NCBI RefSeq assembly: GCF_000002865.3
Contig: NW_001865087.1
Coordinates: 26,269 to 90,268, forward strand
DNA from: Monosiga brevicollis MX1
Lineage: Eukaryota
Length of the DNA stretch: 64,000 bases
Reading direction: 5' to 3'
Positions 1 to 24,014 of this stretch are shown piece by piece (position 1 is the stretch's first letter; each line of letters begins with the position of its first letter). A program made the position numbers and the translations under genes. A model generated the notes under the pieces. That model made no database searches. It saw only the letters and a program-made list of their open reading frames with translations, and was not told the DNA's origin.

Positions 1-760
1 CCCCCATTTGGTGACATATTCAAAGTGTTACCCATATCACACAACATCATATCAAACTGCATACGTACCTTATCTTTGTATTGGGCAGCATCTCGAATGC
101 GTTGTTGGTCCCAACTGGTCAACAGCTGCAGCGCCTCTTGTGGATCTGATGAATCACACGCACTGTACAACTGCTCTCCATCATCACTCATAATAACGGT
201 ATCTCTCTCTCTATTCACCATCCGCTTCAAACCGCTTTGCTTGCTTCTCTAGCCACCACCAATTTCATGAGCCCCCTCCAAGTACAACTCGTCTGACAAC
301 CTAGAATTCGACAGGCGCGCGCCGTTTCCAAAACGGCAGCCGGTCACCGGGCTCTTTGCTCTTCTCTGTCTGATGCACCAAACGACTCACCTTTGGCCAG
401 TAGTTCTCGATGACAGTTGCGAGGACGGGTGGACTTGATTGCCCAAGCGCACGTTGTCGACTGCGAGGCGAGATCAGTGGCCTCACAGGCAGCAGTGCTT
501 TCAATCAAAACGTTCCGGCGTCGCCGCAAGACCCCGATCAGGTAAGTCCCAAACCAAGCACAAACGATCAGTCACCACGCACACACAAAGCAAGACACGT
601 CAAGCAGCCCGCCGATGCCGATATCGAGACCGAGACCGCTGCCAAAAGAGAGCAAAAGAAGAAGAAGTCAAAGGCAAAGGGCAAAAAGGCAAAGAGGGAA
701 CAAGAAAAATGCCAACACACACACACACGTTTACTCTTATTCTTCTTTTTTAATTTTTTA
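1..760. repeat. Segmental duplication unit (ankyrin gene intron 1 + exon 1 + upstream region), homologous to ~6510-7230
   Basis: Shared blocks include tctcatgagccccctccaa-tacaactcgtctgacaacc, gcccaagcgcacgttg, gcgagatcagtggcctcac and cgcc(g/a)caag(a/g)ccccga. Confidence 0.85.
69..191 (-). CDS. First (N-cap) exon of ankyrin-repeat family paralogue A; gene continues off the left edge of the window
   Basis: ATG at 191, 123 nt, MSDDGEQLYSACDSSDPQEALQLLTSWDQQRIRDAAQYKDK followed by a GTACGT donor. Same length as, and clearly homologous to, exon 6580-6702, and homologous to the N-terminus of the gene at 24014. Confidence 0.85.
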
Positions 761-1237
761 CTTTCGAGAAAAGTTAAATTCCAAAGCGCCCGTTAAGCTT
801 GTTCGGATGGCGATTTCTTTGCGAGCATTGTCTCAAAGGCTCGCTGTGTAGGTCACAATCAGCTCATTGCCGTCAATGTCACAAGACCTTACGCGACCAC
901 ACTTTGTGCAAAGCAAAGCCGACTGGAAAAAAAAAAAAAAACTTACAGTGTAGTAAAGAACAAACTCACACCACAACCCGCCTTTTTTTTTCGCGGCGAC
1001 CCGCAGCTCGGCACGCAGCGATCAAGCCCCGAGTTTCTCTGCCACAGGGGAAGCTGGAAAAAAAGGGGGTGTGGACATCCAGCTGCTCATCCAGGAGCCA
1101 GCTTTGTGTGTTTTTGATATGGGACTGGCAGCCCTTACCTATCAGACCCCGAAGCACCGAGAGATACTCCTGATAAATTCGATCACAAGCGCACAACGCT
1201 TCCCAAACAAACGCACAAAGAGAAAACAAAAACCACG

Positions 1238-1560
1238 CTAGACGGTTGTATCTCGCTCCAGCATGGGACCGAGATTGTACGCCAAGCCGCCCGTGGCGCC
1301 GGCTTGCTGAAGGCGAGCTATGAGTTGGTCGAGTCTGGCGCAGGGCGCGACTAGAGTGTCGTTCACGAACCAGCCTTGATCGTCCGGGCTCCACCGAAGC
1401 AGATGGTGGCGAGGGCGCCCGGCATGTGCCACGGTCATGGCAAGGGAGCCGTCCGGCCGCCGTCGTAGCAAGAAGGCATGTCCATCCGGGCGTACCTCTT
1501 GCACCAGCAAAGACTCGGCTTCCTGCCGACCCATGTCGCCGTGCACCACAACGTGGGGGC
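1238..1560 (-). CDS. SH2 domain (C-terminal part of a gene)
   Basis: HGDMGRQEAESLL...PDGHAFLLRRR...LAMTV...RHHLL...WFVN...LDQLIARL matches the SH2 consensus and keeps the FLxR arginine. A YEAM tyrosine motif lies just upstream; the stop is at 1238. Confidence 0.8.
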
Positions 1561-1625
1561 TCGCGGCGGAACCGGGGCCGATCGTGTCGTGGGTTGCAAA
1601 GGCAGGACCGTCGCAGGGCATGGCT

Positions 1626-1633
1626 TCATAGTT

Positions 1634-1677
<44 letters not shown>

Positions 1678-2495
1678 TTTGTTGAGCGTAGAAAGCTCAT
1701 GAGAGGGGAAAGGGGCGGACCTTTGTCGGCGTTGAAGCAGCCGTACAAGCGAAGGTTGCCCATGGCGATGGAGCTGTTTTCCGCAAGTGTGACGGAGCCG
1801 CCGATGCGAAAGTCGAGGGTTGAGAGGTCGGTTAGATCGAGGGCCCAGTGCAGGGTCAAAGCCATTTCCGTGGTGTTGGGGGCGGCGAGGGGGCGGGTGC
1901 TAACGGCGAGGGCCACGTCGGAGCCAAAACCGGAGCTTGCGATTTTGTCCCAGCAGGCGCCATCACCCGACACCACGAGGCCGGCTTGTTTGTCGCGGAG
2001 GGAATCACGACCAACGGTGAGGAGGGCTCGAATGTTTTGATCACACGAACCACCGAGGCTCATCCAGTTGGTGCTATCCATGCGCAGGATGATGTCGAGG
2101 GATACGACGCCGGCGGCAAGATCGGGAGGGAGGGTCACCGAGCGCTTGTTGCTTTCACGAGAGCGGCCAGCAAAGAAGAGAAAGTTTGCTGGATCGTCAA
2201 AGTAGGGGACGGGGTCAAGAAGGGCGGGGGCCAGCATACCGCAAGGTTCGGTCGGGGGCAAAGCGGGGGAGTCGTTGTAAGAGGTGAAGGTGTCAAGCTG
2301 AGGCTGGCAGCCGATGGGGTCGTCCTTGGCGTTCGACAGAAAAAAGCTGGCGCCACCACCCACACTGTCGTCGCGGCTGTCCCACAGGAGGACGGTCTCT
2401 GTTGAAGCGCCATGGTGGGCACCCAGGACGAGGGCAACCAAGGCGATGGTCCAGAATGGTGCCAGGCGATTGCCTTGTTTCCGAGATCGGCGCAT
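1626..2495 (-). CDS. Signal-peptide-bearing extracellular region, probably the 5' part of the SH2-containing gene
   Basis: 289-aa ORF with a basic N-terminus plus hydrophobic signal (FWTIALVALVLGAHHGAS) and a globular, Cys-containing body; it runs into the (TG)20 tract. Confidence 0.65.
1635..1675. repeat. (CA)20 microsatellite
   Basis: Direct reading. Confidence 0.97.
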
Positions 2496-3209: not shown

Positions 3210-3430
3210 GGCCGCCGCAAGGCCCCGACCAGGAGAATCCCGTACCAAGCACAAGCAATCAGTCACCACACACACACAAAGCCAGACACGTCAAGCCGCC
3301 CGCCGATATGCCGATATCGATACGGAGACCGCTGCCAAAGAGGACAGAAAAAAAAACTAAAAAGCCAAAGAGAGAGAAAAGCTTTGAAAGGAAGGAAAAT
3401 GTCGACACACAACATTTTCTTTTCTTTTTT
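3210..3430. repeat. Third copy of a dispersed ~220-bp element also at ~520-760 and ~7040-7230
   Basis: cgccgcaaggccccgaccagg...atcagtcaccac.cacacacaaagc.agacacgtcaagc.gcccgccgat...gagaccgctgccaaaagag is shared with 520-650, and partly with 7040-7130. Confidence 0.8.
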
Positions 3431-4618: not shown

Positions 4619-6702
4619 CTGCTCCGCATGAATCAAGCCTTGGACTGGCGCCACGTTGAAAACTTCAATGAGAACAAGGCAATGCGAACAATGACATGGG
4701 GATCAGGTTCGCACCTTTGGAATTCGAAGTTTGGTAGGAGCAAAGGGCTTGTGAAGCGCCCAGAAGCTCTGCAACCAGCTGCAACGTCAAACAGATTCAT
4801 CGGTAAGCAAGCTTGCCTCTGCAATTAGTACCGAAAATAAACAAAGGCCCACCTCCAGCTTGATGGGATTCCTGCGAAGGAGCAGATTCAAGGGCCATGC
4901 ACCGCTCTGCCACAGCAAGTCATCAAATATCAGTCGCAGGTGCAGCTAAACAGTGGAAAGTACAGCATCGCGGTGAACAGCTTACACGATCTCTCACATC
5001 CGGGTCAGCACCGTGCCGCAAGAGTTGGCGGATGCCCTTGCGGCTGGCAGAGAGGGAAGCGCAAGCTAGATGAAGTGGCGTTCGGCCGCGCTAATTATGA
5101 TCGATATTTGAAAACATGAGGCATGTTTTCGTTTTTTGTTTGAAAGGGGGCGTGCGTGGGTGGGAGTGAGCGTCAAATGTGCCGGGGTAAAGCTGAAGAA
5201 ACGCCCACTGAAAGCTGCTTGAGCGCATAAGGGAGGCAGAGGTGCGATGGCAAGGGACGGTGTAGTGCTTGGTTTGAAATCACAACATCAAGAAAAGGAG
5301 AGAGCGAGAACGGCGGGCGGAAGAGCCCAGCGGAACAAAGCGGGGGCATGGAGCACCCACAAAGCGCGGACGCAAATTGGGGGAAGAAGAGGGATAGCGG
5401 GAAAGCAGAAAAGGGGCCAGAGGCAGAACGGACGTGCACGGGTGGGCAGGTGTAGCCGAGCAAGGAACGGGGCAAAAGCGACGGGCAGCGGGAGCAGGAG
5501 CAGCAGCCAGAGGGGGGCAAAGGGGGAAGAGGGAGGCACTGTACTGACGTTGGCCTTGGCTTTAGCATTAGCGCCGTGCTCCAGCAGCATCTCCATCACC
5601 TTGACATGACCGTTTTGGCAGGCCATGTGCAGTGGCGTTTGGCGATTCTGTGGGATGATGCATCAGCATGATGTACAGGTACAGCAGCATTGTCATGTGG
5701 TACAGGTGTAATATCATAGGGGGTTAATGGGAGGAAGAGGGAGGTACTGTACTGACGCCGTCCTTAGCTTCAGCATCAACGCCGTGCTTCAACAGCATCT
5801 CCACCACCTTGACATGACCGCGACCACAGGCAGTGTGCAGTACTGTATCGTTACGCTGTGGGATGATGCATCGGCATGATGTACAGGTACAGCAGCATCA
5901 TCATGTGGTCCAGGTGTACCATCATAGGGGGCTCAAGGGGGTAAGGGGAGGTACTGTACTGACTTTGGTCTTGGCTTCAGCATCAGCACCTTGCTTCAAC
6001 AGCATCTCCACCACCTTGACATGACCGTTATTGCAGGCAAAGTGCAGTGGTGTAGAGCCACCCTGTGGGATGATGCATCAGCATGACGTACATCATCATC
6101 ATCATCATCGTGTATACCATCAGAGGGGAATCAAAGGGGGGAAAAGGGGTACCGTACTGACCCTTTCCTTGGCTTCAGTATCAGCACCATGCTCCAACAG
6201 CATCTCCACCACCTTGTCATTAATGCAGGCAAAGTGCAGGGGTGTCCAGCCATTCTGTAGGATGATGCATCAGCATGACGTACAGGCACAGCATCACCAT
6301 CATCATCATGGGGTCCAGGTCCACCATCAAGGGGGGGGGGGGTCAAGGAGGGAAGAGGGTGGTACTACACTGACCTCGTCCTTGGCTTGAGCATCAGCAC
6401 CGTGCTTCAAGAGCATCTCCACCACCTTGACAAGACCGTTATCGCAGGCACAGTGCAGTGGTGTTTGGTCACGCTGTGGGGGATGATGCAAACATAAGTG
6501 TTATACCATAACGTCACCCCATTCAGACATATTCTCAGCAGCCAATATCACACAACAACATACCAAACAGCTTACGTACCACACCTTTGTATTGGGCAGC
6601 ACGTTGTATACGTGCTTGGTCCCAACTGGTCACCAGCTGCAGCGCCTCTTGTGGATCGAATGACCGACACGCATCCCACAGCTGGTCTCCATCATCACTC
6701 AT
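4619..6702 (-). CDS. Ankyrin-repeat protein paralogue B: N-cap exon, five cassette ankyrin exons, C-cap ankyrin exon, short C-terminal exons; 3' end unresolved
   Basis: Exons with canonical AG/GT boundaries: 6580-6702, 6375-6473, 6162-6254, 5964-6062, 5757-5855, 5549-5647 and 4986-5090 (RGRTPLHLACASLSASRKGIRQLLRHGADPDVRDR). Probable further exons: 4853-4906, 4715-4778, 4619-4662. Repeats follow the TPLHxAC..GH...V..LL..GAD consensus. Confidence 0.88.
5520..6490. repeat. Tandem array of five ~200-bp exon+intron units
   Basis: The intron motif ctgtgggatgatgcatcagcatga...ggtactgtactgac and the exon motif cagcatctccaccaccttgacatgaccg recur with a period of 198-213 bp. Confidence 0.95.
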
Positions 6703-8087
6703 AGCAACGGTGTCTCTCTATTCTCCATTCGCTTCAAATCCGCTTTCTTGCTTTTCTATCCAAAATCAATCTCATGAGCCCCCTCCAAATACAACTCGTC
6801 TGACAACCCAAAAATCGGGCTGGGCGGATCCAAGACGGCAGCCGGTCAGCGGATCTTGCTCTTCCCCCCCTGAAAGTGCCGAGCGCCTCACCTCTGGCCA
6901 ACAGTTCTGGGTGAAAGTTGCAAGTACAGGTCTACTCGGTGGCCCAAGCGCACGTTGCCGACTGCGAGATCAGTGGCCTCACTCCAAAAAAAAAAAAAAA
7001 AGGGTGGTGGCAGTGCTTTTTCAATCAAACGATCTGGCATCGCCACAAGGCCCCGACCAGAAGAGTCCCGTACAAAGGGCAAGCGATCAAGCACAATCAG
7101 CCACGACAGACAGGCAAGCCACGTCGATCAGGTCGCCTTTGTCGATGTTGAAGAAGGGAAAAAGAGGCAAGAAGGCACAAGTCAAGAAGGCAAAATGCAA
7201 AGTGCAAACATATGTTTACGCCTTCTTCTTCAAACGAGTCATGACAGCAAGACTCCAAAGGACTCCAAAACGTACAACGCGGACTGCCCCCATGGCAGCT
7301 GGAACGCATTCCAAGACCCGTTATGAGCAGATTTCAAAGAGCCACAAAGCTTGGGGTTTTATGTGAATGCGTACTGCCACTTTGCCAGCCATGGCGTTGG
7401 CTACCCGACACCCCGGATGTGAGCGATCATTCCTGACGGCGAGTGCCAGCTCAAGTTCATGGCAACTCGCAACCAAAGGAATCAAGCAGTAGAACATGAA
7501 CGTTTCTAGGCATTGTAAATGACTGTCAGGGGGTTCAAGCTCATGAACTCTTATGTCGTGTTGGAAAGCGCAAGCGGTGGGGCCCAGATCCCCACAGAGC
7601 GCCCAAATCAATTCATCACTGCCAGCAGTAAAAAAAGAGAAAAGAAAAAAGGAGCAAAGGGGTTCTCCACAGCGCCTTGCTATAATGCTTGTCAAGAAGA
7701 TACTCCTGCCAACCCTCAACACTGCCCCCTCTTGATGTTCTAATCCCCATGTCTGACTTACACCAATGGCTTGATGCAGAGCACGATGCGATCAACTTTC
7801 TCTAGCCAGCATCAGCAATTCAATTCTAGCAGCAGACATGGCAATGCCATCCGCCAAGACAAGGACACACATGCACGAGCCAGCTCGTCGTTCAACACGG
7901 CACGACATGTATTCAGGATCTATTCAACACAAGTCCTCTCTCTATGCACAAAGTCAGGTAACATTGGCGATTCGCCAATGTTTTGGGTAGTTTTCGTTTT
8001 GTTGCCCCCAGTGCAAGTATACCAAGCGATGCCTTTTGCATGCGTCGCCATGATACCTTACGCTTGATCAAATTGGGCTTTCAGGGA

Positions 8088-11000
8088 TTATACAGACGGC
8101 ATTTGAATGCCATCGGCCTCAGCGGTGGCGTCCAAATCCATCACAATGTCCTCACTCGCTTCCTCGGCAGATGGCGCCGGGGCCTCGTCGCCCGGAGCCG
8201 TAAACCAGGTTGAAATGACGCTTTCCTTTGCTTGCGGTGCAGGGACGATGGGTGCGGGATCAAAGTAGCCAGCCTGCTGAGGCTCGGCACCACTGCTTGA
8301 TTCGTCTGCATCCTCACCAACTTGGAGGTAATTGCCATCCTCGTCAAAGATCTGAAAGTCCACGTCCTCGTCCCAGGCGGCATCGGCGGCAGAAACTTGG
8401 CCGTACAGGCCAATGGAAGGATTGGGCTCCTCCTGTGCACCTCCAAAATACAAGGGATTGAACAAGGTGCGATTGTCCTCAAGCATGGCTTGACTTTGTT
8501 TGTCCGCAGCCACGCGTCGAGCATTGTCCTTGCGGCGGCGATACCAACACACTGCCACAAGACAACAGATCAAGACGGCCAAGGGTATGGCAATTGCCAG
8601 AGCAACGATCAACGCATCGCCACTGGCCGAGCCGTTCTGGCTCGCTGCTTCCGTGTTCTCCCGTTCGCGCGCCACCGAAAATAGCGTCTCCATGTCAAAC
8701 TCGACGCCCCCCTCTCGGTTTTCGCCGCCTGTATTGGCAGGGTAGATGCCGACAAGACGGACGTCGCCTTGCATGTCGAGAGTGTAGCTCTCAGTCGAGT
8801 TGCTCAACTCGGCAACCAAAGTACCATTCTCCTGGCCGTCGCGACGACGCCGCGCCGAGTTGGTCCGAAACACGTACACGTTTTGGGATTCGACGTCACC
8901 GGAGCTAACCCCCAGTGACCACGTCAAGCGACAATTAGTCGCCAGCGCTCCAGTGACCCGCTCACAGGATACTTGACCGCCCTCCAAAGTCGTTGAAGGC
9001 ACTTGGAAACGGCAGCTTCCATCAACCGCGCGCTCTTGCAGATATGGACAAGGCTCGGTGGCCACACACAACTCAGCAGCATGATCCAGCTGATACACAG
9101 AGTCGCAAGCCATGGGTACGCAGGCTGCGCTTCCAGGGGAACTGAGGCTGCGGTCGGTCATGTTGGCCGGACACACAGTAGGAACCGCGGCCGTGGGCGT
9201 AGAGTCAACAAAATGACCACACACGCGCAACGTGGGTAACCAGGACAAGGTGCCCGGACAGAGCGAGCTGTCCTCTTCGGCAGCACGAGTTTCAAATTCG
9301 GACAGCAGGCTCGTGCACAAGGCGCTTGTCGGCGTCAGTGCACATGCCCCGGGCAGGGTGACACAGCCCAAGTCGCTGTCTTTGAAGACAGTGAGATTAC
9401 TCTCGGGGCACGTGGCCACCGTCCCATCAAATGTGAACGTGAGATCCAGGCTGGCGCCTGACGTGGTAAAGCGCCACAACGGTCCAGCCTGATTGCCCTC
9501 GACGCGAACGCTGATGACTGCGTGGGTACTGGTGAGGGTCACCGCGAAAACACGGTAGGAGAGCGCGGCTCCGGCAGGATTGGATACAATCACGTAGGCC
9601 GGAACATCATCAAGCGCGGCATTCACCGCCTCGAGGGCCCGAACTACCTCCAGCCCAGAAGCGTCAATCAGGGCGACGCCCAGTTCAGAAGTCTCTTCGA
9701 TGCGCGCCGCGTTTGCGCGCACCACTCCATCATCGAATAAAAAGGAAGTGGCTTCATCAAAGGACCAGGTGGCTGTCCAGGTGTCCAGTAAACGCACGGT
9801 AGTGCCACTGCGGTACACGAGGCTATCGTCGTCCGCCAGTGGGATGAACCACAGGTGGGTGAGGTCAGGAGCGTAGGCCAAGCGTGCACCCAATTCAAAG
9901 TAGGGACCCAACGTGAAAGTGGCCAGGCGCACGAAGGGCCGGGCTGCCGTGCCAATGTAGACGGCGCCACGCGTCTGTCCATCCGGATTGACGAGTTGCA
10001 GAGAAAAGCCGGCCAAAACTGAGAACATGGCTCCACTAGCATCGCGCTCCATCTGCACGTCAAAGATCACGGGAACAGCCTGACAGACACCGGAGACGTT
10101 GACAGTAAAGCCAGGGCAAGGGAGGGCTTCAGTACACGTTTCGGTTGCCTCGCACGTGCCAGTTTCGATGGACGACAAGCAGGTGCCCTCACTGGTCAGC
10201 AAGGTGCCGACAGGACAGCGCTGCTCCCCAGCATCGTCGGCTTGCGAGCCCGTGTCAGTTGCGTTGTTGCCGGTCGAGGCATCGTTGGTTTCGTCGATGC
10301 TCAGACTGACTGTCGTCCCAACAGGAAAGAAGTCCACCGAAGATGAAACGTTCTGAAGTGGTCGAAGCGCCACCAAGTAGTTGATCAGGCCATTCTCAGC
10401 CGCGGGCGTGCCCGCCGCAACCGTGCTGAGGTTGACAAGACGGAAGGTCCAGTAGCGTAAAGTCGATTCCAAGACCAAGCGTGGCAACGGCGCGTCACCG
10501 GCCAACTGCGCCTCTAGAATCCGAGCTGGGAGATAATCCGTCAGGAAGGGTACCGAAATGGTGCTTGGCACACTGATGTTCAGGACGTGGGCCGTGTATC
10601 CCATGGTCACAGACGAGGCCCGCCATTGAGCCAAGTCCATTGGGTCCACCGTTGCCTGGCTGAGTGCATTGCCAATGTAGATGCCGGTGACGGCTGCCTC
10701 CTGTGGGCTAGCAGGCACCTGCACGCCTACATCACCGCCGCCACTACCACCACTACCGTTGCCTTCACCACCAGAGCCCGTGGAGCCCTGACCAGAACCC
10801 CCAATGGAGCCGGGCACTCCGTTGACGGTACTTGCGGGGGCATATACCTGCACGGCCCAAGGTCCCGGAGTCACGACTTCTGGTCCGTCCACAATGGCGC
10901 CAAGCTCAAAGACCAGCCATGTCGCGGCGGCTTGACGGGCTGTCGTCGTGTCGCTTGCCACACCCGCCAACTGGGCCGTAACAGTGACATTTGTTGCACG

Positions 11001-14000
11001 GTTGGTGATGGTCACGAGTGGCGGATGGCGACCCGTCAAGTAGAGCTGAATAATTTCCACCAGAGCGTCGAGCCTCGAGCTTGAGTTGGTTCGCAGTACC
11101 ACTGCTGACAGATTAGCGAGCGCCCACGAGTCAATCCACAAAGTCTCAGAGGCGTTTCCCTCGTTGGCCGCTGTCATGTTGTGAAGGACTTCGACACCAT
11201 CGCCATGCACGTCGTCGCTGCGCTGCACGACGCTCCCCGTCAGCACCTGACCCAAAGGATCACCCAACAGACTCGTGATGTCGCCGGTGTTGCTGACCAG
11301 GCCCACACCACGCAAGTTGAGAACGACAACCACCCGGCGCGTGCCCAGTGGAAGCACCAAACTCGATCCGCGAATAATGTGACGATGCAAGAAGAGGCGA
11401 GCCACATCCCACGCTGGTGGCACACTTTGAGTTGTCGTGGGCCCGCCCACCAAGGAAGAGTAAAACGCAAGCTCAAGTGTTGCACCGAGCGTTGAGCGGT
11501 GCTGCTGCGCTGATACCAATGCCACGAGACCTTCAATCAGTACTGAAGCCTGATAGACCTTGACGTCGCAGGCCATGAAGGCGTCACACGCATAGACCTC
11601 AAAAGCGCCGTCTTCAGCAGCCAAGCTGGCAGCCAACGGATTGTCGCTACCCCACGTCACAAGCATGTCCGTGGTATTACCGCGCAGCGTGGTACTACTT
11701 GTGCTGACGGCCCGAATGGCCACAAGCGGTGGACGGCAAACACCGGCGCTATCAATTCCCCACAGGCCCTCGCACAGTCGCTGCTTCACGCACACCCCGT
11801 TGACCTGTACACCTTGCCCTGCACAGGCATCAACCGAGTCCATGAGGTGCTGCAAGGCTCGGGCCAAGCTGCTGCGAGCCCCGGTCAGTGCTTGCCAGAC
11901 ACCAGGCACGAGCGTCGTGAACTGCTGCATCGAGGCGACCAGCGCCCTCAACGATGCCGTCGAGAAGGTGGCGGTGCTGTTGGCAGTCGGTGTCCAAGCG
12001 GCCGCACCGGCCAATGATACACGATACTCCGCAAATTGAAGCGAGTTCAGACGACCCGTGTGCACAAATTCCGAGGCGGTACCGTCGATAGGAGCCACAG
12101 CGCGCAGAGCAGGAAGCCCAGGAGCCCAAGGCGTGGGCGAGACCGCGCAGCCACCAAATGTGGGCGTTTCACAGCCTGCCGGCCCTGACTGGCCAGAGCT
12201 GGCCGAATGAAAGGAGAACCGCACAGTTCCACTGATGGCCAAGAAGCGAGTCAGATCACCCACAAACTCCGAGGCACGTTGGACGTGTAACACCAAAACG
12301 TTGCCCTCTGCAGAGGACACGACGGCTGTAATCATGAACACAAAATGTTGCAGCGTCGTGGGATGATGAAGGTACAGGCGGCCCAAAGTTGAGGAAGCGT
12401 TGTGGCTCGGCTGCATCGCACTGGCAGCTGCGTCCAGCAGCCGCGTACTTTGATTGTGTCCGTCCATGTCGAGTACCGAAAGGTAAATGATCGAGAGATT
12501 GGCCAGCAGCGTGCTATCGCAAGCCCATGACCCAGGACGCATCGATGGGGGCGTCCATGACGCATCGTTGTCGGGCGGCAAAGCCGTACCGACCCAAGTG
12601 GCCACTGCCTGCACGGGGCCGGCGGCTCTCGCCGCTTCCTGTAAGGTTGTAGGAAGGCGAGCACGGCGAGCACGGCTCCAAGCCTCGATGCCCTGACCAT
12701 TGACTGGGACCACAACCAGGTACGGCAGCAGATCAATCTGCCAGTCAGTGAGCTGGACGGACACGGTAATCAGTGTCGTGTTGATCAGCTGACCGGGCGA
12801 CATGGAAACCATGGGTCCATGGGCTCGAGAAGTGTTGGTCAGAAGCTGGCCGGCCACATCCAGTGTGAGGGCCAGCTGGGGCCCTACAGCCCCCGCGTTT
12901 ACTTCTCCTGCTTGCAGGTATAGATGGTAGAAGCGCACACCAGCATCGAGTGCAACGCGAGGCGCGACAACTGTAAAAGACACAGACGCCCTGGCTTCAG
13001 AGGCCACGGTCACTGTTGTGTGGCTCACGTCAAGGTCCAGGGCACCAATACCAGGTGCAGCGTCCAAACCAGGCACTGATCCGGCCGAGAAGACCGGCAC
13101 TGCCGTCAGAAGGCAACCCAAACCGCCATCGGCTCGGGCAATTGGCCGCCAGCCCACAGCACAGCTAGTCTGCTCACTCGCGCCGACGTGGGCGGGAGCA
13201 TCAACACAGCCACCGTGATGAGCAGACCATTGCGCACCGGTACAACCGCAGGCACCATCAACGCTAAAATCGACCTGCCAGCTGCGTTCGCGAGTCCAAC
13301 CGAGCGCGCTCGGCGACAATGAGCCCAAGGTAGAGTCGGCCAGGCGAACGGCAAGCTCAAACTGCGAGGGCGTATCGCTGTTGATGCTCACGGCCAGCAC
13401 GCGCAATTGCACAACAGCACCATGACCCTGCAGCGACACCAGGGGAAAGCGAGGCCGCCATGTGCTAGCCAAGGTTGCGAGCTCCTGCTCAACAACAACT
13501 TGCACGGGACCAGCCAGGGCAGTGAGGGGTCCGAGCGCCTCAACATGAGCAGATCCAGCCAACATTTCATATGCCGCACTTGACAACTCAGCAAGAGTCA
13601 AATCGTATGCCGAGCCCAGCATGTCAAACAGAGCGGCGTGTAACGCCACCAAATCGCGGCCTTCAAGTTCGGCCCATACTTGTGCCACAGCCAGACGCAG
13701 CTCGGCCACCAGCGGGGCAAGCTCATCGTGCCAACCCTGCAGTGAGCGCAGGGCAGCCAGATTAGACGACCGGTCGTTGGCAAAGGTTGGCACCAGTTGG
13801 CCATGGTCTGGAGCAGCCAAAGTGAATGGCACGACGGAGACGAGCACGCTGGGTTGACGGTCTCGGACGGGCCAGACGAGCAGATTTGCCTCTACAGCCA
13901 CAGCCCCCGTATAAGGCAGGACACAGATGGCCACGGCGCCCGATGGGATGGCGGCTGCGACTGAAACAAGAATGTTGACGTCTTCAAGTTGATCGGCCGG

Positions 14001-17000
14001 CACAGTTTGAATGGGCACCAATAGGCTAGCCCAGGTGGCAGCGGACGCGCCACTCTCAGCGAGGGCCAAGACGTCGGCTGTAGCCCAGCCCAAGACCAGG
14101 GCAGTCATGTTGCGCGCGTCGCCCCGGCGCTCAATGGTTAGTGTGGAGTTGAAATGGCCAGCAAGCTCATCGTGGTCGAGGGTGCCCGAGTTCGGGCGGG
14201 CGCTCAGCGAAAACGCAGGCTGACCGACCAACGCAGGCACGCAGCGTCGGGTTGAAGGGTCGCGGCGATAAAAGCCCGGACAGCGGGTTGCTGCATAGCA
14301 ATCATTGCCAACACGCAGCGCTCCCGATGCACAGGCAACACCCACGGCAACAGCTGTCCGGCAGCCAAATGGAGTCAAGGTAGCGCCCTCAGGACAGCCC
14401 AAATTGGATGCCCAACCAAAAGACAGGTGCACAGGCATTCCAGGGAGGAAAATGAGAGAGAAAAGGTCATCATAGGCCACGAGTGATGTCACATTCAGAA
14501 CGCAGGATTCCAGCCCGCATGAGATGCTCTCCAGGTTGTACAAAAGCGCCTCGCCGCGCTCGTTGCTGAGCCGCAAGGTACTGTTGTCCAGCACGAGCAG
14601 CCGGGCCAAGTGAACAAGTGGATCTGCAGGATCCCCCAGTCCAACCGTGAGCGTGCTCACATTGGCGGCCGTGGCAGCATCCGCGAGTAAAGCACCCGGC
14701 TGAAAAGGTCCGTGAGCATTGGCTGGGGCCAATGCAGGATCCCAAAATACTCGAAATTCACCGTGTGCCGTGGGATTCACCTGGTCAACCGCAACCTCTT
14801 CGACACCCGCCGACAGATTTGAGGGAACAAGAACGAGCTGCCCATCATACGACTCCAAAAGCAAAACCACATGCAAGCCCAGAGCGACACGCATCGAAGG
14901 TAGCGACAGGTTTGTGAGACCACCCGTGTATGGCAGCCGCACAGAGACCGTGGTGTTGGCCAGATATACTTGCATGGCGGCTGCCTCGCTGGAGCTTTGG
15001 ACCAGGATAATCCAGGCGACATTGGTTGCCTGGACCGCAACGGCCACATCAATCCCGCACCAGCCGGGCCGAGCGTCACGGTCGGGCCCCAAAGTCAACT
15101 GAGCTCGAGCAACGGCTGGCTCCGCCAGCTGGCACACGCCAGCCTCCGAAGTGAGAGTTCCCGCAGGGCATGGCAGGTCGGTCAAGAGGCCTAGATTGGG
15201 CTGATCAAGCGTAACCGGAGGCGGGGCCAAAACACACTGCAGGCTGCCCTCGCCCTGAACGACGGTCATGAAGCCGGCAGCCGCACAGCTGGTACGGACG
15301 GCCCCCTGGGCTGGCAGCTGCACCACAATGACTGCGCTGTCCGCCAGGACGACATCCGAGGACATGTCCAGATTCTCGTCGGCGAGGAGCACGGGCTGAA
15401 ACAAGGTATCGCTCCCGTTGGAGATGACCCGCCCGACCACTTGCTGCCAGGCGAACGAGGCATTGGCCCTGGGTCGAGTGAGGGAACGATTAAAGCCTAG
15501 AACCACCAAGCCCTGATGCTCGGCACGCAGCGCGTGGCAAGGCACAGCGCTACAGTTGATGGGCCAGCTGATGGCAGGCGACAGCACGCGTGTATCTGGG
15601 AACAGGTGGCGCAGGGAACTGCTCTCGGCGCTGCTGTCAAGCAAGACATCGTCCAGGCGCATGAAGAGGGCAAATTCAGGGAAGATGCGGCTCCAGGTGG
15701 CAGGAACGGCCACGAGACCCGATATACCCGTTGTATTGATGGCCACGTCAGGAAAGAGAGCAACCGCACGACCTTCGGCATTGAGATGAGTGGTGGTTTC
15801 CAGCAAGAACTGGGCCGTCCTGAGCCAGGTGGGGCTCGACAGCAGCTCGGTGGCCCTATACAAGATGACGCGCGTGGTGGCAGCCTCCGAGGCTTCAATG
15901 CGAATTGAGGTGCGCACTTGCGCAAGTGCATCGTTCATATCAGGCGCCATAACGGCGACTTGCAAAGCCTGGGTTGGAATGTGCGCCTCCTCGCACGTCC
16001 AAAGGCGGGTGCGCCTCATGGTCCCTGGACAACGGGGGAGCGTGTAGCACTGATCTGCCTCGTTGCGTAGAGCGCAATCGGCAGCCTGATTGGCCGCACA
16101 ATGGCCCGTCGAGCGGGCCGAGGGAGAGCCATCCGCACAGGGGGCAGTGGCTTGAGAGTCCAGAAAGAGTGTGAAGGTGTTGTTGTTCTCAAAAACCTGG
16201 TCGACTGGGCCGGCAAACACGGTGCGCGGCTCCACAGAAAGCAAGAGACCGTCTGCCTCGCTATAAGTGGCATTTGTGACTGATACAACCACAAAGGCAC
16301 CATCGGAGGGTCGCTGCAGCCGACATAGCAGGTCGAGGCCACCTGCGAGCAACGAAGGGACCGCGGGCAAGTAGGCTGCGGCGGGAGAGTTGTCTGCAGG
16401 GCCGCGAATGCGTACGCGGCGGACCAACGGCATGGTGTCGGCGTCCAAGGTGAACGAGGCCGGCTCCAGAGTCTCGTTGACATGATAAGACAGATTGAAG
16501 AGTGCACACGGGGGCTCTAGACAATTCACGAGCTCGTAGCGGAGCTCTTGTGCCACGGAACTGAAGCGTGCGCCATCATTGCTGACGGTCACATTGAGGG
16601 TCATGGGTCGGGTGATGCCGTCTGGAAGCAGGCATTGCACCAGATTGCCAGAGTCGAAAATGGCCATCGTGGTGAAGGCCACGCGAGCGGCGTGGCTGGC
16701 TGTCTCTTCAAAGTGGCAAGTGAGATTGGCAGTGTTGGCAAAGTCCACGCCGGCCACATCGATGAGCATGACACCACTGCCCAGCGTAACAACGATGGGG
16801 TCGACGGTTCCATGAACTTCAGGCACTGGATTATTACAAAGGGCCCCATAAAAGCCTAAGACAGCAGCAAGCAAGGCCAGGATGAGGCGCGGCACGAGAG
16901 ACTCGGCAAACAATTGCTGAAGAAGATGGGAGAAGAGGAAGCGGCGCGATGATACGACATGGGCCGGCGCGGCGTCAATGGTCAACAGGGGTCTCGAAGA

Positions 17001-20000
17001 CTGTCATGGAAGGGGTCAACCACTCTGAACCAACCCGTGAAACAAGAGCAGAGGCCTGATAGGGCGGAGCAGATGCCGTGACCGTGGCACTTGTCTGGGG
17101 GACAGTAGAAGGCGCATTGATTGTCGCCCGTTCCCACGTAGTGGTCGTCACAACCACACGTTGCATTCTGTCGATAGCATTGGCCGTGCTCGTTGCAAAA
17201 GTCGGCCCGCGTGCATTCATGTTGGCAGAGAGTGCCCACAAAGTTGCTTCCGGGATCACAGTTGCAGACACCGGTGATGCTGTTGCAAGAGCCGCCGTTC
17301 TGTCACGTGCAAGAACCCAAGCGGATGGATGAGGCTAGAAGCAAGGCGGCGCAGGTTGTCTGAGCACCGGTCAGGGGGGCTGGGCTTACCTGGCAGGCAC
17401 AATTCTCGCAGGTGGGACCGTAAAAGTTGCCGATACAGGCACACTCCATATCTCCAGAAGTGGCATTGCAAGCGCAACGACCGTAGTTTTGGCAGGGACC
17501 GGCACACGTCTTGGCAACGCACACGCCGTTTGCGTCGGGCTCGTAGCAGGGCTCGCAGGCACATTGTCCCGTGAAGACATTGCATGTTCCATGACCTCCG
17601 CAAACCTACTCAGCAAACACCGCGTTTCGCAGCGCGAATGTTGGTCAGTTTCTTCCCAGCGCTCTACCAGAATAGGTTCTGGCTCCAATGTTTGCCCCAG
17701 TCACGCTGCTTGGCCCATGCCGGCTGGACAATGACGAAACTTGCCTCGCCATCGCCCGTGGCAGCATCAATGCCGGGACAAGTCTGGTCGCATGTTTCAC
17801 CCCACCAACCGGCAGCGCATTCACAGATGCCATTGCTGGTGACACGGGCTGTTGTGGGGAGCACGAGCGTGAGCAACGATGACAATGGCGGCCAAGCCAA
17901 GCAGGTCACGGCGCGATGAAGACGCTGAATCAGAGAAAGCCACGTACTCGAGGCGAGACTGGCTCGGGACGCGGTGCAGACGCCATCAAGAAAGATGCCA
18001 CAGGCCACATCGCAGTCTTCATCACTTTGGCCCACGAAGCAAGCTGTGTTGGCACCCTCGGCTTCACAGGGGCAGCCGGCAGTGCTGCAGTTGGCCCCCT
18101 TGAAGCCACACTCGCAAAAGCACTGCCCTGTGCCTGCGTCGCAAGTTCCGTGGTTATTGCAAGGAGATGCGGCGCCTCCGGGGCACTGCGATGGGAAAAC
18201 GACAACAAGCAAACGAAAAGGAACAGTGAGCCTTCTTGTTGCCTTCTTTTTTTTTTTTTTTTCCTCCTCAAATCTTGCCGTCCAGGGAAAGGAGGTGCAA
18301 CACGTACCTCGTTGCTACAGTCACTGCCCCAGTAACCAGTGTCACAGGTACACGTGGATCGGGCAAAGTTTGGCGTCCCGTGGCCAGAGCACCAGGCTAA
18401 CACACGCCTACGATTGTGCGAAAACAATGAGGTTGAAGGTCAGAAATGAAGCTGGTCTTCAGAGAAGACTTGAGGTTGGTCGAATCGGATGGCGGCTGGA
18501 GAACGCACGTGTTGTCCGCAGACGGCACGGCCTGGTTGGCAGCATCAACGGGATCGAGAACGGCTCCCGGAGGACGAGAACAGGTGGGTGTCGAGCCCGT
18601 ATTGATGGCAATGGCCCAGTTGGTGGCCTTGCAGTAGCCAGAATCGGTCCAACCAGAGAGGCACTCGCCCAGATCATAGGACCAACCACACCCCTCAACC
18701 TAAGATTCACAACAATCAGCAAAACAAATGCGCGGGGGGGATGCGAAAGGGGAGGAGAAAATGGTGGCGTCGACGCGACATCGAAGCGCGTTTCATTGCC
18801 CAGAAACAACATGACGAACACAAGCACACAAACATACTTGTCGACAGGAAGTGCAGGAGCTGAAGGTGCTGCAAATGGGGCAGCATTCGTTATTGGAGAG
18901 CGCCTCTGTTGCACATCCGTTGACCTGTAGGCAAACAAACGGAAACGGGTGAGCTCTGGGTATGGGCAGGGGTTGTGTGGTTTGACAGACGCCAGAGCTC
19001 GGATGACAAGAATTGTGTTGAGAAGTGCCGCCGTCTGATCCCAAGGAATTCCCACCAAATTGTCGTCCATGACACAGGTTGAAGATGAAGCACACCAGCC
19101 ACAGCCGTCAACGTTGGCGCACTCGCCACATGTCGCCTGAGTAGCACAAGACAAGCCCCGGATTTGAGAAATGATGGCATGTGGAACCCACAAAGAGGAA
19201 CGAGGGGTGGGAAACAGGACGGCATCAAAGAAAAGGCGGGCATACGTGTTGCGAGCAGTAGTCATTGCAAGAAAAAGCGGAAATTTCGAACCCGCTGTCC
19301 AAAACGGTCGTCTGCGGCCAGGAGAGTTTTCAGAAGTCAAGGCAATCAGGCACACTGCGACGGTCGGGCAGATGATCGGAAGGGGTTGGTGTTCCACGGG
19401 GCTGCAAGCGCACCGTATCGAATTCAACAAATTCCAGGGTGCTATCAGCGGCCAGAGAGCCAAAGCGGTAGCTGTCAAGCCCAGTGACCCCACTGATTTT
19501 CATGTTGAAAGTAAAGTCCTTGTTGGGAAGATTTGAAAGCACCATGCCGTCCGTGCTGGGAGGTATCAGAAAATTGGAAGGCAGTGACGGGCAGGTATGA
19601 ACTTGCTCCTGCTTTATCTTTGAGAAATGGTTTCAGAGGGGCGGGTGGAAGCGATTGGTGCTTACCAGCAGGTGGCCCAAGCCCATTGCATGAGGCCGGT
19701 GGCAGAGACCGGGTCCCATTGATAGCAATCATTGGTAGCCTCGGAGCAATCGCTGGACATGCCAGTATCATCATCACGCACGGATACCGTGCCGCCGGGG
19801 CCTCCATTGGCGGTTCCCAGGTCTGGGCTCTCGATGGCGAGGCGCAGGCGTCCGCCATCTGAGCAAAGCAGAGCGTAAGAGGGGTGAGCAAGTGATGATG
19901 ATTATAAATGGCCACTTGGCAAGCTGGCTAGCTGTGCGCGTTGCTTGATGGTGGCGGCGTCGGGGTTGTTGTGTGCGCGATGGCAGGCGGACCTTCGTTG

Positions 20001-22764: not shown

Positions 22765-24014
22765 TCATGACGTGAATGGAAGCTGCGCCGGGGGCTGCGG
22801 CAGGCCAGCTTGATGGGCAGCAAACACGGGCGTCATTCGAAAACTGAACCCACGATGGCAGGCCACTTCGAGTGGCGTCCGGCCGTCCTGCGTATGCATC
22901 GCATCCGACCATGAGGACAAGAACCATAAGGCGCAGAGAGAATCGGGGAGCGGCACTGACGCTGTTCTTGTCCTGGGCGTCGGCCCCATGCTTCAATAGG
23001 AGTTCCGCGACCTCGGCATAACCAACTTCAGCGGCCAAGTGCAATGGTGTCTGGCCTTCCTGCGCCATGTTCGGAGCGAACGCGCACCGAATATGAGAAC
23101 GAAATACACGGCACCAACAAGCAAAAACAAAAAAGCCGGCACGGGCAAGGGGGAGGGATACACAAACCGTATTTTTGGCTGCAACATCAGCGCCGTGGCT
23201 CAGCAAAAGGCTTACGAGCCCCACGTGTCCGATATCAGAAGCATTGTGTAGCGGGGTCCACCCATCCTGCAGAGTCACGTGCCATAGCCATCGGCGCGCG
23301 TACACACAAACCATCAGAAAAAAAAAATCAGCTCAAGCGTCTCATGAGGGTCGATTTCTTGTTTGTGCGAGGCCATTCTGCACGCTTGAAAGGGGCGACA
23401 CGCGCTGTGGCAACTCACATCGGGGGTGGCTCGAGCATCAGCGCCAAGCCCCAATAGGATCTTGGCCGCTTCCAGGTGACCGTTGTAGCAGGCACAATGC
23501 AGTGGCGTCAAGCCATTCTGTGGATTCATATCCCAGGTCGTCACTGCACCGCGACAAGACTCGAGAGCTCCGGACAGGTGGGTGAGACCAACCTTGCTCT
23601 TGGCTTTGGCGTCGGCGCCGCACGTCAACAGGATCCCCACCATCTCCACATGACCATTGTCACAGGCACAATGCATCGATGTCCAGCCGTTCTATGGAAT
23701 TCGATCCAGTCAGCCGCGCACATCTGCAGCAGGGCGGGGCGGGGCGGGGGCGCTGAGGCGTCAAGGCGCGGGGACAACGGAGATGTGCACCTGACCTTGT
23801 TTCTACGTTCAGGATCGGCATCGTGCTTCAGCAAAACCTGCACGGCCTCAACATGCCCGTGCTGGCAGGCCAAATGCAGTGGTGTCCATCCCTCTTTGCT
23901 GTACAAAGCAGCACTTGAGATCCGTTCTGGATCCCAGCTGCTCAGCAACTGCAGCGCCACATGTGACTCTGAGGCCAGACAGGCCTTGAACAGCTGCTCT
24001 CCATCTGTGCTCAT
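22765..24014 (-). CDS. Ankyrin-repeat protein paralogue C (six exons, about 6 repeats)
   Basis: Exons 23796-24014 (MSTDGEQLFKAC...GWTPLHLACQHGH...), 23593-23691, 23419-23517, 23168-23266 and 22961-23059 (each 99 nt, phase 0), and 22765-22887 (DGRTPLEVAC...FTS*). Confidence 0.92.

What the first reader, a model, noticed from the sequence alone, without database searches (positions are those of the whole stretch)
5549..6473. Exon-cassette ankyrin array with hypervariable binding-surface codons (natural DARPin-like diversification system)
Seen: five tandem exon+intron units, each exon one phase-0 ankyrin repeat: RDQTPLHCACDNGLVKVVEMLLKHGADAQAKDE, NGWTPLHFACIND--KVVEMLLEHGADTEAKER, GGSTPLHFACNNGHVKVVEMLLKQGADAEAKTK, RNDTVLHTACGRGHVKVVEMLLKHGVDAEAKDG, NRQTPLHMACQNGHVKVMEMLLEHGANAKAKAN. 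Introns and scaffold codons (CTG CAC, GCC TGY, AAG GTG RTG GAG ATG) are near-identical. Codons 1-3, 8, 11-12 and 32-33 differ radically, often at two or three bases. Established: these are the beta-turn and first-helix positions that form the ankyrin binding face, largely those randomised in DARPin libraries. Analogous repeat-level diversification is known for one-repeat-per-exon LRR/TPR genes of brown algae and for WD40/ANK/TPR repeats of fungal NLRs. Inference: a recently homogenised, recombining cassette array under diversifying selection, i.e. a candidate variable cytosolic recognition (innate-immune-like) receptor system in a unicellular holozoan.
Basis: partly seen in the sequence, partly recalled or inferred. 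Interest (0 to 1): 0.92.

Follow-up and report, generated by a model that had tools for sequence, protein, structure and literature searches.

The report
Choanoflagellate natural ankyrin binder library
A spliced gene of the choanoflagellate Monosiga brevicollis builds an ankyrin protein from five look-alike exon cassettes whose predicted binding-face codons change far faster than silent sites; it belongs to a multi-gene family that likely swaps these cassettes and may serve to recognise foreign proteins, a role not yet tested.

Summary
The five exon+intron units belong to an intact 10-exon, 335-aa gene on the minus strand (6702-4472): N-cap, five ankyrin cassettes, a capping repeat and a constant tail, with no enzyme domain. 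RNA contigs show 3 of the 7 introns tested spliced out. Relatives are Monosiga brevicollis gene models: 10 with the same N-cap or tail on 9 scaffolds, 3 more with the same cassettes and other ends. All 35 cassettes compared differ. They vary at codons 1, 3, 8, 11, 12, 32 and 33 and do not group by gene. At those codons dN/dS is 13-16, and selection fits better than a neutral hot spot. Corrections: the introns are 76-90% alike, not near-identical; codon 2 is mostly Gly family-wide; similarity is family-wide, not local. Cassette exchange is inferred; strain variation and an immune role are untested. It works like fungal NLR ankyrin arrays and brown-algal one-repeat-per-exon receptors but lacks their signalling domain. 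The scan noted the same cassette pattern before, on other DNA of this genome (e1-8068253). New variant of a known kind.

The parts
6580..6702 (-). Exon 1: start codon and 41-codon N-terminal capping region, phase 0
   Evidence: 73-78% identical to N-termini of M. brevicollis models
6375..6473 (-). Ankyrin cassette exon 1 (99 nt)
   Evidence: exact RNA contig 6381-6441 in X5
6162..6254 (-). Ankyrin cassette exon 2 (93 nt; two codons missing in the helix1-helix2 turn)
   Evidence: exact DNA contig 6070-6286
5964..6062 (-). Ankyrin cassette exon 3 (99 nt)
5757..5855 (-). Ankyrin cassette exon 4 (99 nt)
   Evidence: splice joint to next exon in X3
5549..5647 (-). Ankyrin cassette exon 5 (99 nt)
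   Evidence: splice joints on both sides
5648..6374 (-). Four related cassette introns (99-120 nt; 6374-6255, 6161-6063, 5963-5856, 5756-5648), 76-90% alike
5091..5548 (-). Long intron (458 nt) that starts like a cassette intron; read-through of a similar intron stands in paralog models P0016 and P0017
4986..5090 (-). Exon 7: divergent 35-codon ankyrin repeat (start of the C-terminal cap)
   Evidence: both splice joints in X3 and X5
4853..4906 (-). Exon 8: 18 codons, partial capping repeat
4715..4778 (-). Exon 9: end of cap and start of the constant tail
   Evidence: model matched to the spliced relative P0005
4472..4644 (-). Exon 10: constant tail, predicted helical hairpin, and stop codon
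6703..7146 (-). Upstream region shared (73-75%) with the paralog at the window's left end
69..191 (-). N-cap exon of a second family member; the rest runs off the window
22770..24014 (-). Diverged relative: same N-cap type and 99-nt ankyrin exons, but introns unrelated to each other; end coordinate approximate

Best explanation
This is a spliced Monosiga brevicollis gene for a predicted cytosolic ankyrin binder, one of a multi-gene family whose one-repeat exon cassettes are under diversifying selection on the predicted binding face and are likely exchanged between genes, most likely to recognise fast-changing foreign proteins. How it would work: (1) shown: each repeat is a symmetric phase-0 exon, so cassettes can be added, lost or swapped without breaking the frame; (2) shown: cassettes and their introns stay alike across genes while seven codons diverge; (3) inferred: ordinary unequal crossing-over and gene conversion between the roughly 200-bp exon+intron units move cassettes within and between loci, and selection keeps new binding-face variants; (4) inferred: each gene gives a rigid ankyrin stack with a different aromatic-rich surface between constant caps; (5) inferred, weakest: the constant C-terminal helical tail couples any bound target to one shared partner, so the family acts as a set of variable adaptors against viral, bacterial or mobile-element proteins.
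For: Intact 10-exon model, all introns GT-AG, 335 aa, no stop, C-terminal 130 aa 93 identical to the spliced relative P0005. Exact intron-skipping joints in RNA contigs and not in the two DNA-like runs. Ten M. brevicollis models with this N-cap or tail on 9 scaffolds, and 3 more with the same cassettes. Entropy peaks at positions 8, 11, 3, 1, 12, 33, 32 in 32 cassettes of 11 other proteins. With those sites fixed in advance, dN/dS in the window's five exons is 12.9-16.5, 2dlnL 36-43 against 1; allowing the sites their own mutation rate still needs dN/dS above 1 (2dlnL 11.9). First and second codon positions differ more than third (0.65, 0.64, 0.42). W/Y/F fill 44 of 140 residues at positions 3, 8, 11, 12 against 3 of 910 in the scaffold. 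The sites fall in helix 1 and the hairpin loop of the AlphaFold model of P0005, and DARPin binders differ at aligned positions 3, 8, 11, 12. Cassettes do not group by gene: 0 of 35 have their nearest neighbour in the same gene; scaffold identity 0.785 within and 0.794 between genes. A diverged relative in the window keeps the exon plan but its introns have decayed to background, so the likeness in the array needs recent copying. No hydrophobic N-terminus or membrane segment.
Against: No recombination tract was mapped; four units give only 6 informative sites. Lack of grouping by gene could also come from whole-gene duplication of an array whose cassettes were already different; the best-supported cross-gene pairs are often last cassettes (P0005/P0009, P0004/P0006), and the 33-column tree is poorly resolved (4 of 32 branches supported). 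The selection test rests on five exons, a single-base codon model and a fixed tree; conversion and multi-base changes can inflate dN/dS. The scaffold codons are only weakly constrained (dN/dS 0.70-0.84 by likelihood, about 0.36 by counting). With the recalled DARPin positions alone the margin over a neutral hot spot is thin (2dlnL 4.4). Most family proteins are faulty gene models with intron read-through. No ligand, induction or strain data; the tail matches no known effector or adaptor.
Confidence: 0.6

Rival explanations
1. The family is diversified by selection but its targets are the cell's own proteins or genomic parasites: a set of substrate or cargo adaptors (for example for protein degradation) in a conflict inside the genome, not defence against outside microbes.
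For: Variable binder plus constant tail is the layout of ankyrin substrate receptors of ubiquitin ligases (recalled); FEM1-type entries are among the fold matches. A chromodomain fragment of a high-depth element sits on a family-type upstream sequence at 3370-3131.
Against: The FEM1 match is to the ankyrin part only. No SOCS, VHL or F-box motif was found in the tail by Pfam. Such strong diversification usually tracks foreign ligands in the fungal and algal cases (PMC4986451, PMC3341825).
Confidence: 0.2
2. The effector-less genes are mainly a reservoir or decoy set: they store and test cassettes that are copied into ankyrin receptors fused to kinase or PARP effectors elsewhere in the genome.
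For: The same cassettes and intron read-through occur in models with other ends (P0015, P0019, kinase-bearing P0017), and these mix with the stand-alone cassettes in the tree.
Against: This gene is intact and spliced, and its tail is conserved across paralogs, which argues for a protein function of its own. P0017 is a partial model on a 13-kb scaffold and may be a false fusion. I could not compare DNA with the kinase-PARP genes.
Confidence: 0.12
3. A recently amplified repeat family drifting near neutrality, with the variable codons being mutation or conversion hot spots rather than selected sites.
For: Scaffold dN/dS of 0.7-0.8; third positions of the variable codons are also raised (0.42 against 0.13); one cassette carries a two-codon deletion.
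Against: A neutral rate-multiplier model fits worse than selection (lnL -340.6 against -335.4 and -334.6). No stop codon in five exons; variation sits on one predicted face and is rich in aromatic residues; the same positions vary in other genes.
Confidence: 0.05
4. A programmed system that reshuffles cassettes or skips exons in each cell generation, as proposed for brown algae.
For: Symmetric phase-0 exons allow in-frame skipping. Both DNA-like runs carry one changed letter at 5624, a Met/Ile change at hypervariable codon 8, where RNA contigs of X3 carry the window's letter.
Against: DNA contigs match the array's order exactly wherever they are listed. Only consecutive exon joints were seen at 99% identity. 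No inverted or orphan cassette in the window. The 5624 difference is equally explained by a near-identical sister copy.
Confidence: 0.05

Closest known systems
Fungal NLRs with internally conserved ANK/TPR/WD40 repeats (Podospora HNWD, Pa_3_8560; PMC4986451 and PMC13449251, passages read)
   Same: Conserved repeat scaffold, a few positively selected positions on the inner helix and hairpin of the ankyrin binding face, repeat exchange within and between genes.
   Different: No NACHT or NB-ARC domain and no death effector; repeats are separate exons with related introns; repeat identity is about 65% overall, below the 85% used there; host is a single-celled holozoan.
Ectocarpus ROCO-LRR and NB-ARC-TPR candidate immune receptors (PMC3341825, abstract and section 15 read; PMC11378527, passages)
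   Same: One repeat per symmetric exon, variable repeat number among paralogs, diversifying selection on the ligand face, lineage-restricted gene family.
   Different: Ankyrin instead of LRR or TPR; phase 0 instead of phase 2 (ROCO); no ROC-COR or NB-ARC domain; no spare cassettes on the non-coding strand in this window; short introns that are themselves copies.
Designed ankyrin repeat proteins (DARPins; PMC8683736, passages; PDB matches)
   Same: N-cap, self-compatible 33-residue internal repeats, C-cap; variation on the same surface; best fold matches are DARPins (TM 0.92 to 6moi over the target).
   Different: Natural; extra variable positions (8 and 32); position 31 is a nearly fixed Lys although its DARPin counterpart is randomised (recalled); carries a constant C-terminal tail.
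Ankyrin substrate receptors of cullin ligases (ASB, FEM1, poxviral ANK-PRANC; recalled)
   Same: Ankyrin stack followed by a short constant helical C-terminal module.
   Different: No SOCS, VHL or F-box match found for the tail; those families are not known to me to be cassette-shuffled.

Membership tests
Ankyrin repeat proteins (Pfam PF00023, PF12796) | 33-residue helix-turn-helix-hairpin repeats above Pfam cut-off | tested here: met
   Spliced relative P0005: Ank_2 220 bits, Ank 158 bits; model pLDDT 86.5 matches ankyrin structures; a window exon alone matches 416 PDB sequences
Fungal NLRs with conserved ANK repeats | Central NACHT or NB-ARC domain and N-terminal effector | tested here: not met
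   Complete 335-aa model has no room for one; Pfam finds only ankyrin families above cut-off in P0005, P0008, P0021
Fungal NLRs with conserved ANK repeats | Repeats over 85% identical over 100 aa | tested here: not met
   Within-gene identity 0.785 at 26 scaffold positions and 0.158 at 7 variable ones, about 65% overall
Fungal NLRs with conserved ANK repeats | Positive selection on inner helix and hairpin positions | tested here: met
   positions placed on the model's secondary structure
Fungal NLRs with conserved ANK repeats | Repeat exchange within and between genes | tested here: inconclusive
   No grouping by gene, but no tract mapped; only protein sequences for other loci
Fungal NLRs with conserved ANK repeats | Repeat-number polymorphism between strains | not testable with these tools
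   No whole genome held; no genomic relatives found in contig collections
Ectocarpus exon-shuffling receptors (ROCO-LRR, NB-ARC-TPR) | One repeat per symmetric exon | tested here: met
   All cassette introns phase 0; joints confirmed for 2 cassette-flanking introns
Ectocarpus exon-shuffling receptors (ROCO-LRR, NB-ARC-TPR) | ROC-COR or NB-ARC signalling domain | tested here: not met
Ectocarpus exon-shuffling receptors (ROCO-LRR, NB-ARC-TPR) | Spare or inverted repeat exons inside introns | tested here: not met
   5 of 5 motif matches in the window are the coding exons; other loci not seen
Ectocarpus exon-shuffling receptors (ROCO-LRR, NB-ARC-TPR) | Alternative splicing of repeat exons | tested here: inconclusive
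   Only consecutive joints listed at 99% identity; 4 of 7 introns in the laid stretch had no listed joint
Ankyrin cullin-ligase substrate receptors (ASB, FEM1, PRANC) | C-terminal SOCS, VHL or F-box motif | tested here: inconclusive
   No Pfam hit above cut-off in the tail; tail model is low confidence (pTM 0.45) and gave no significant fold match

The most novel reading that the evidence does not exclude
M. brevicollis keeps a natural DARPin library: a genome-wide pool of ankyrin exon cassettes with a common intron handle, reshuffled among stand-alone binders and effector-fused receptors fast enough to differ between isolates. It would be a diversified intracellular recognition repertoire in the closest single-celled relatives of animals, with a constant tail that plays the part of an antibody constant region.
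Probability: 0.3. Interest if true: 0.85.

Novelty: new variant of a known kind. Interest (0 to 1): 0.63.

Why it matters
Repeat-level diversification of candidate immune receptors is described in fungi and brown algae. My searches found no description of it in a choanoflagellate or of an effector-less ankyrin version (open-licence papers only). M. brevicollis has genetic tools and a known STING response to bacteria (PMC8592570, passages), so the long-open question whether such shuffled repeats are true recognition repertoires, and how they recombine, can be tested in a clonal single cell. The cassettes are also a naturally selected counterpart of DARPin libraries and show which positions and residues evolution varies.

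Tried and rejected
No whole genome is held for this window, so genome-wide cassette DNA could not be collected. Exact-pattern scans found nothing in metagenome contigs, viral contigs or prokaryote genomes. The search for longer, fused relatives was crowded out by animal ankyrins (best 120 of 5144 listed), so it says nothing about fused forms. The tail gave no informative match in Pfam, the ESM Atlas (ankyrin clusters only), Foldseek PDB and viral libraries or VIA-align (best Z 6.9, generic helical hairpins). One search listed no holder on record as RNA; X3 and X5 are taken as RNA only because they show exact intron-skipping joints. Parts without cover at 99%, not used as evidence: the deletion-bearing cassette (6254-6162) had no contig in X3 or X5, and 6492-6615 had none in any run; contigs drop variants and a filter removes some. 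Summed depth over the array was not used as a copy number. Mosaic test among four units had only 6 informative sites. The supplements of PMC8592570 that could be read hold no family gene id; one archive was too large to read and may hold expression tables that bear on induction. Look-ups of earlier findings by sequence were empty. Assembly artefact, prokaryotic or viral origin, and a membrane or secreted product were considered and rejected.

Full report
Observation. The unit repeats at period 208 for 4.8 copies, and an 18-nt scaffold motif occurs 5 times in the window, all here, against 0.12 expected. Two details need correction. The four internal introns differ at 10-24% of aligned bases, so they are related copies but not near-identical. 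Codon 2 is Gly in 26 of 32 cassettes from other family proteins.

The gene. The array is the middle of a 10-exon gene from 6702 to 4472. All nine introns are GT-AG, the first eight are phase 0, and the frame is open for 335 residues. The layout is a 41-residue N-cap, five cassettes, a divergent 35-residue repeat, a partial repeat and a constant tail. It matches P0005, a 305-residue relative from a 1093-base JGI/IMG contig that is evidently spliced: 93 of the last 130 residues are identical. The product has no hydrophobic N-terminus or membrane segment (highest 19-residue hydropathy 0.94), so it is predicted cytosolic. Laid at 99% identity on 4880-6720, contigs of runs X3 and X5 skip the introns 4907-4985 and 5091-5548 exactly, X3 also 5648-5756; runs X1 and X2 show none of these joints. 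That is 3 of the 7 introns in the stretch; the other four had no listed joint. Unspliced intron 6 is also present in X3 and X5, at depth about 20 against 68-79 for the spliced joint. Contigs of X1 and X2 match the array without difference over 5693-5796, 5793-6016, 6070-6286 and 6260-6408, so the order of those parts and the 6-nt deletion are real. These runs may be the same strain as the window and do not test strain variation.

The family. The N-cap finds two Monosiga brevicollis models (2 of 3 candidates); a search with one of them finds more, and a profile of the tail finds 11 proteins at E up to 0.001 among 1.84 billion representatives. Of those 11, six are M. brevicollis models, three come from short unnamed ENA contigs and two are unrelated repetitive proteins. 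No other choanoflagellate is named among them. Many models read through the same intron motif, which shows that the intron is shared between loci. The window holds a second N-cap exon at 191-69 with 75% identical upstream DNA. At 85% identity, X3 and X5 hold joints from N-cap exons to cassette exons of paralogs. One 44-base N-cap contig in X2 has depth 99 against about 10 for single-copy contigs, in rough keeping with ten or so loci.

Selection. In 11 other proteins I anchored 35 repeats and kept 32 in register (3 dropped; one kept unit begins with intron read-through). Entropy is highest at positions 8, 11, 3, 1, 12, 33 and 32. These seven sites were then fixed and tested on the window's five exons, with four codons of the deleted exon masked. 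A codon model with one shared synonymous rate gives dN/dS 12.9-16.5 at these sites and 0.70-0.84 elsewhere, 2dlnL 36-43 against a value of 1, over two frequency models and the best and worst of 8 of the 15 trees. A neutral hot-spot model (own rate, dN/dS 1) reaches lnL -340.6, the selection model -335.4, both together -334.6; so dN/dS above 1 is still needed when the rate is free (2dlnL 11.9, one degree of freedom). With six recalled DARPin positions instead, the margin is 4.4. The limits are five sequences, a single-base model and possible recombination, all of which can inflate the estimate; the weak constraint on the scaffold is a result against a tidy picture. W, Y and F fill 44 of 140 residues at positions 3, 8, 11, 12 and 3 of 910 scaffold residues. 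In the AlphaFold model of P0005 (mean pLDDT 86.5) positions 8, 11 and 12 lie in the first helix and 32, 33, 1 and 3 in the loop between repeats; the best fold matches are DARPins, and DARPin binders differ at the positions aligned to 3, 8, 11, 12 and 24.

Exchange. With a stricter filter, 31 cassettes from 11 of 12 proteins plus 4 of the 5 window cassettes give 35 different sequences and 34 different seven-residue surfaces. Scaffold identity is 0.785 within genes and 0.794 between (p 0.86 for within above between); 0 of 35 have their nearest neighbour in the same gene; the tree needs 28 gene-label changes against 27.3 for shuffled labels. So the array was not made by recent local duplication of one cassette. 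A family-wide pool mixed by unequal crossing-over and gene conversion is the simplest reading, but duplication of whole genes with already different cassettes also removes grouping by gene, and the tree is mostly unresolved. The window offers a control. The relative at 24014 to about 22770 has the same N-cap type and 99-nt exons, but its introns are 0.32-0.59 alike (shuffled background 0.48-0.55) and its scaffold codons 0.53-0.68, against 0.70-0.89 and 0.85-0.95 in the array. The exon plan is old; the likeness of the array needs recent copying. One hint of a very recent event: both DNA-like runs carry a different letter at 5624, a Met/Ile change at codon 8, on contigs of 118 and 149 bases with depth 15 and 22, while RNA contigs of X3 carry the window's letter. 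A near-identical sister cassette or a culture variant would both explain it.

The tail. It is conserved among paralogs, predicted as two long helices with modest confidence, and matches nothing informative. Its role as a handle for a shared partner is inference from the variable-plus-constant layout.

Comparison. Podospora NLRs show conserved ankyrin repeats with five positively selected positions on the inner helices and hairpin, and repeat exchange between genes (PMC4986451, PMC13449251; passages). [quoted passage not shown] This gene works like those repeat domains but is a member of neither family: it has no NACHT, NB-ARC or ROC-COR domain. One ankyrin repeat per exon is by itself known from animal ankyrin genes (recalled, not found in my searches). 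Searches for a description of this family gave none (listings only). PMC5100051, PMC6040629 and PMC8683736 were read as passages and the passages do not mention it. One supplement archive of PMC8592570 could not be read and may bear on induction.

Verdict. A real, spliced, lineage-restricted ankyrin family with strong site-specific diversifying selection and probable cassette exchange. I put the evolutionary reading at about 0.85, exchange between genes at about 0.7, and a defence role at about 0.5-0.6. New variant of a known kind; interest 0.63.

Noticed in passing
window 3370-3131 (-): A copy of the family's upstream sequence (82% to 522-673) runs at about 3215 into the second half of a chromodomain (Pfam PF00385, E 5e-8). 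High-depth contigs leave the window's sequence at 3215. It may be a retrotransposon fragment (chromovirus type, recalled) joined to a third, lost family promoter next to the assembly gap at 2625-2954.
   Followed up: partly
window 24014-22770 (-): Diverged, apparently intact stand-alone ankyrin gene with the family N-cap fused to the first repeat, four 99-nt exons, unrelated introns and a C-terminus like that of P0015 and P0019.
   Followed up: yes
window 191-69 (-) and upstream to 622: Second family member; only the upstream region, N-cap exon and start of intron 1 are in the window.
   Followed up: partly
window 5624: Both DNA-like runs read another letter here, a Met/Ile change at hypervariable codon 8 of the last cassette; RNA contigs of X3 agree with the window.
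   Followed up: partly
window 8088-17003 (-): A 2971-codon open frame without introns, with a hydrophobic segment near the end and a tyrosine-bearing tail; no Pfam family above cut-off. Looks like a large single-pass surface protein.
   Followed up: partly
   Followed up: no
window 985-2477: DNA-like runs show about three times single-copy depth here and a few fixed letter differences, which suggests a multi-copy gene next to the ankyrin loci.
   Followed up: no
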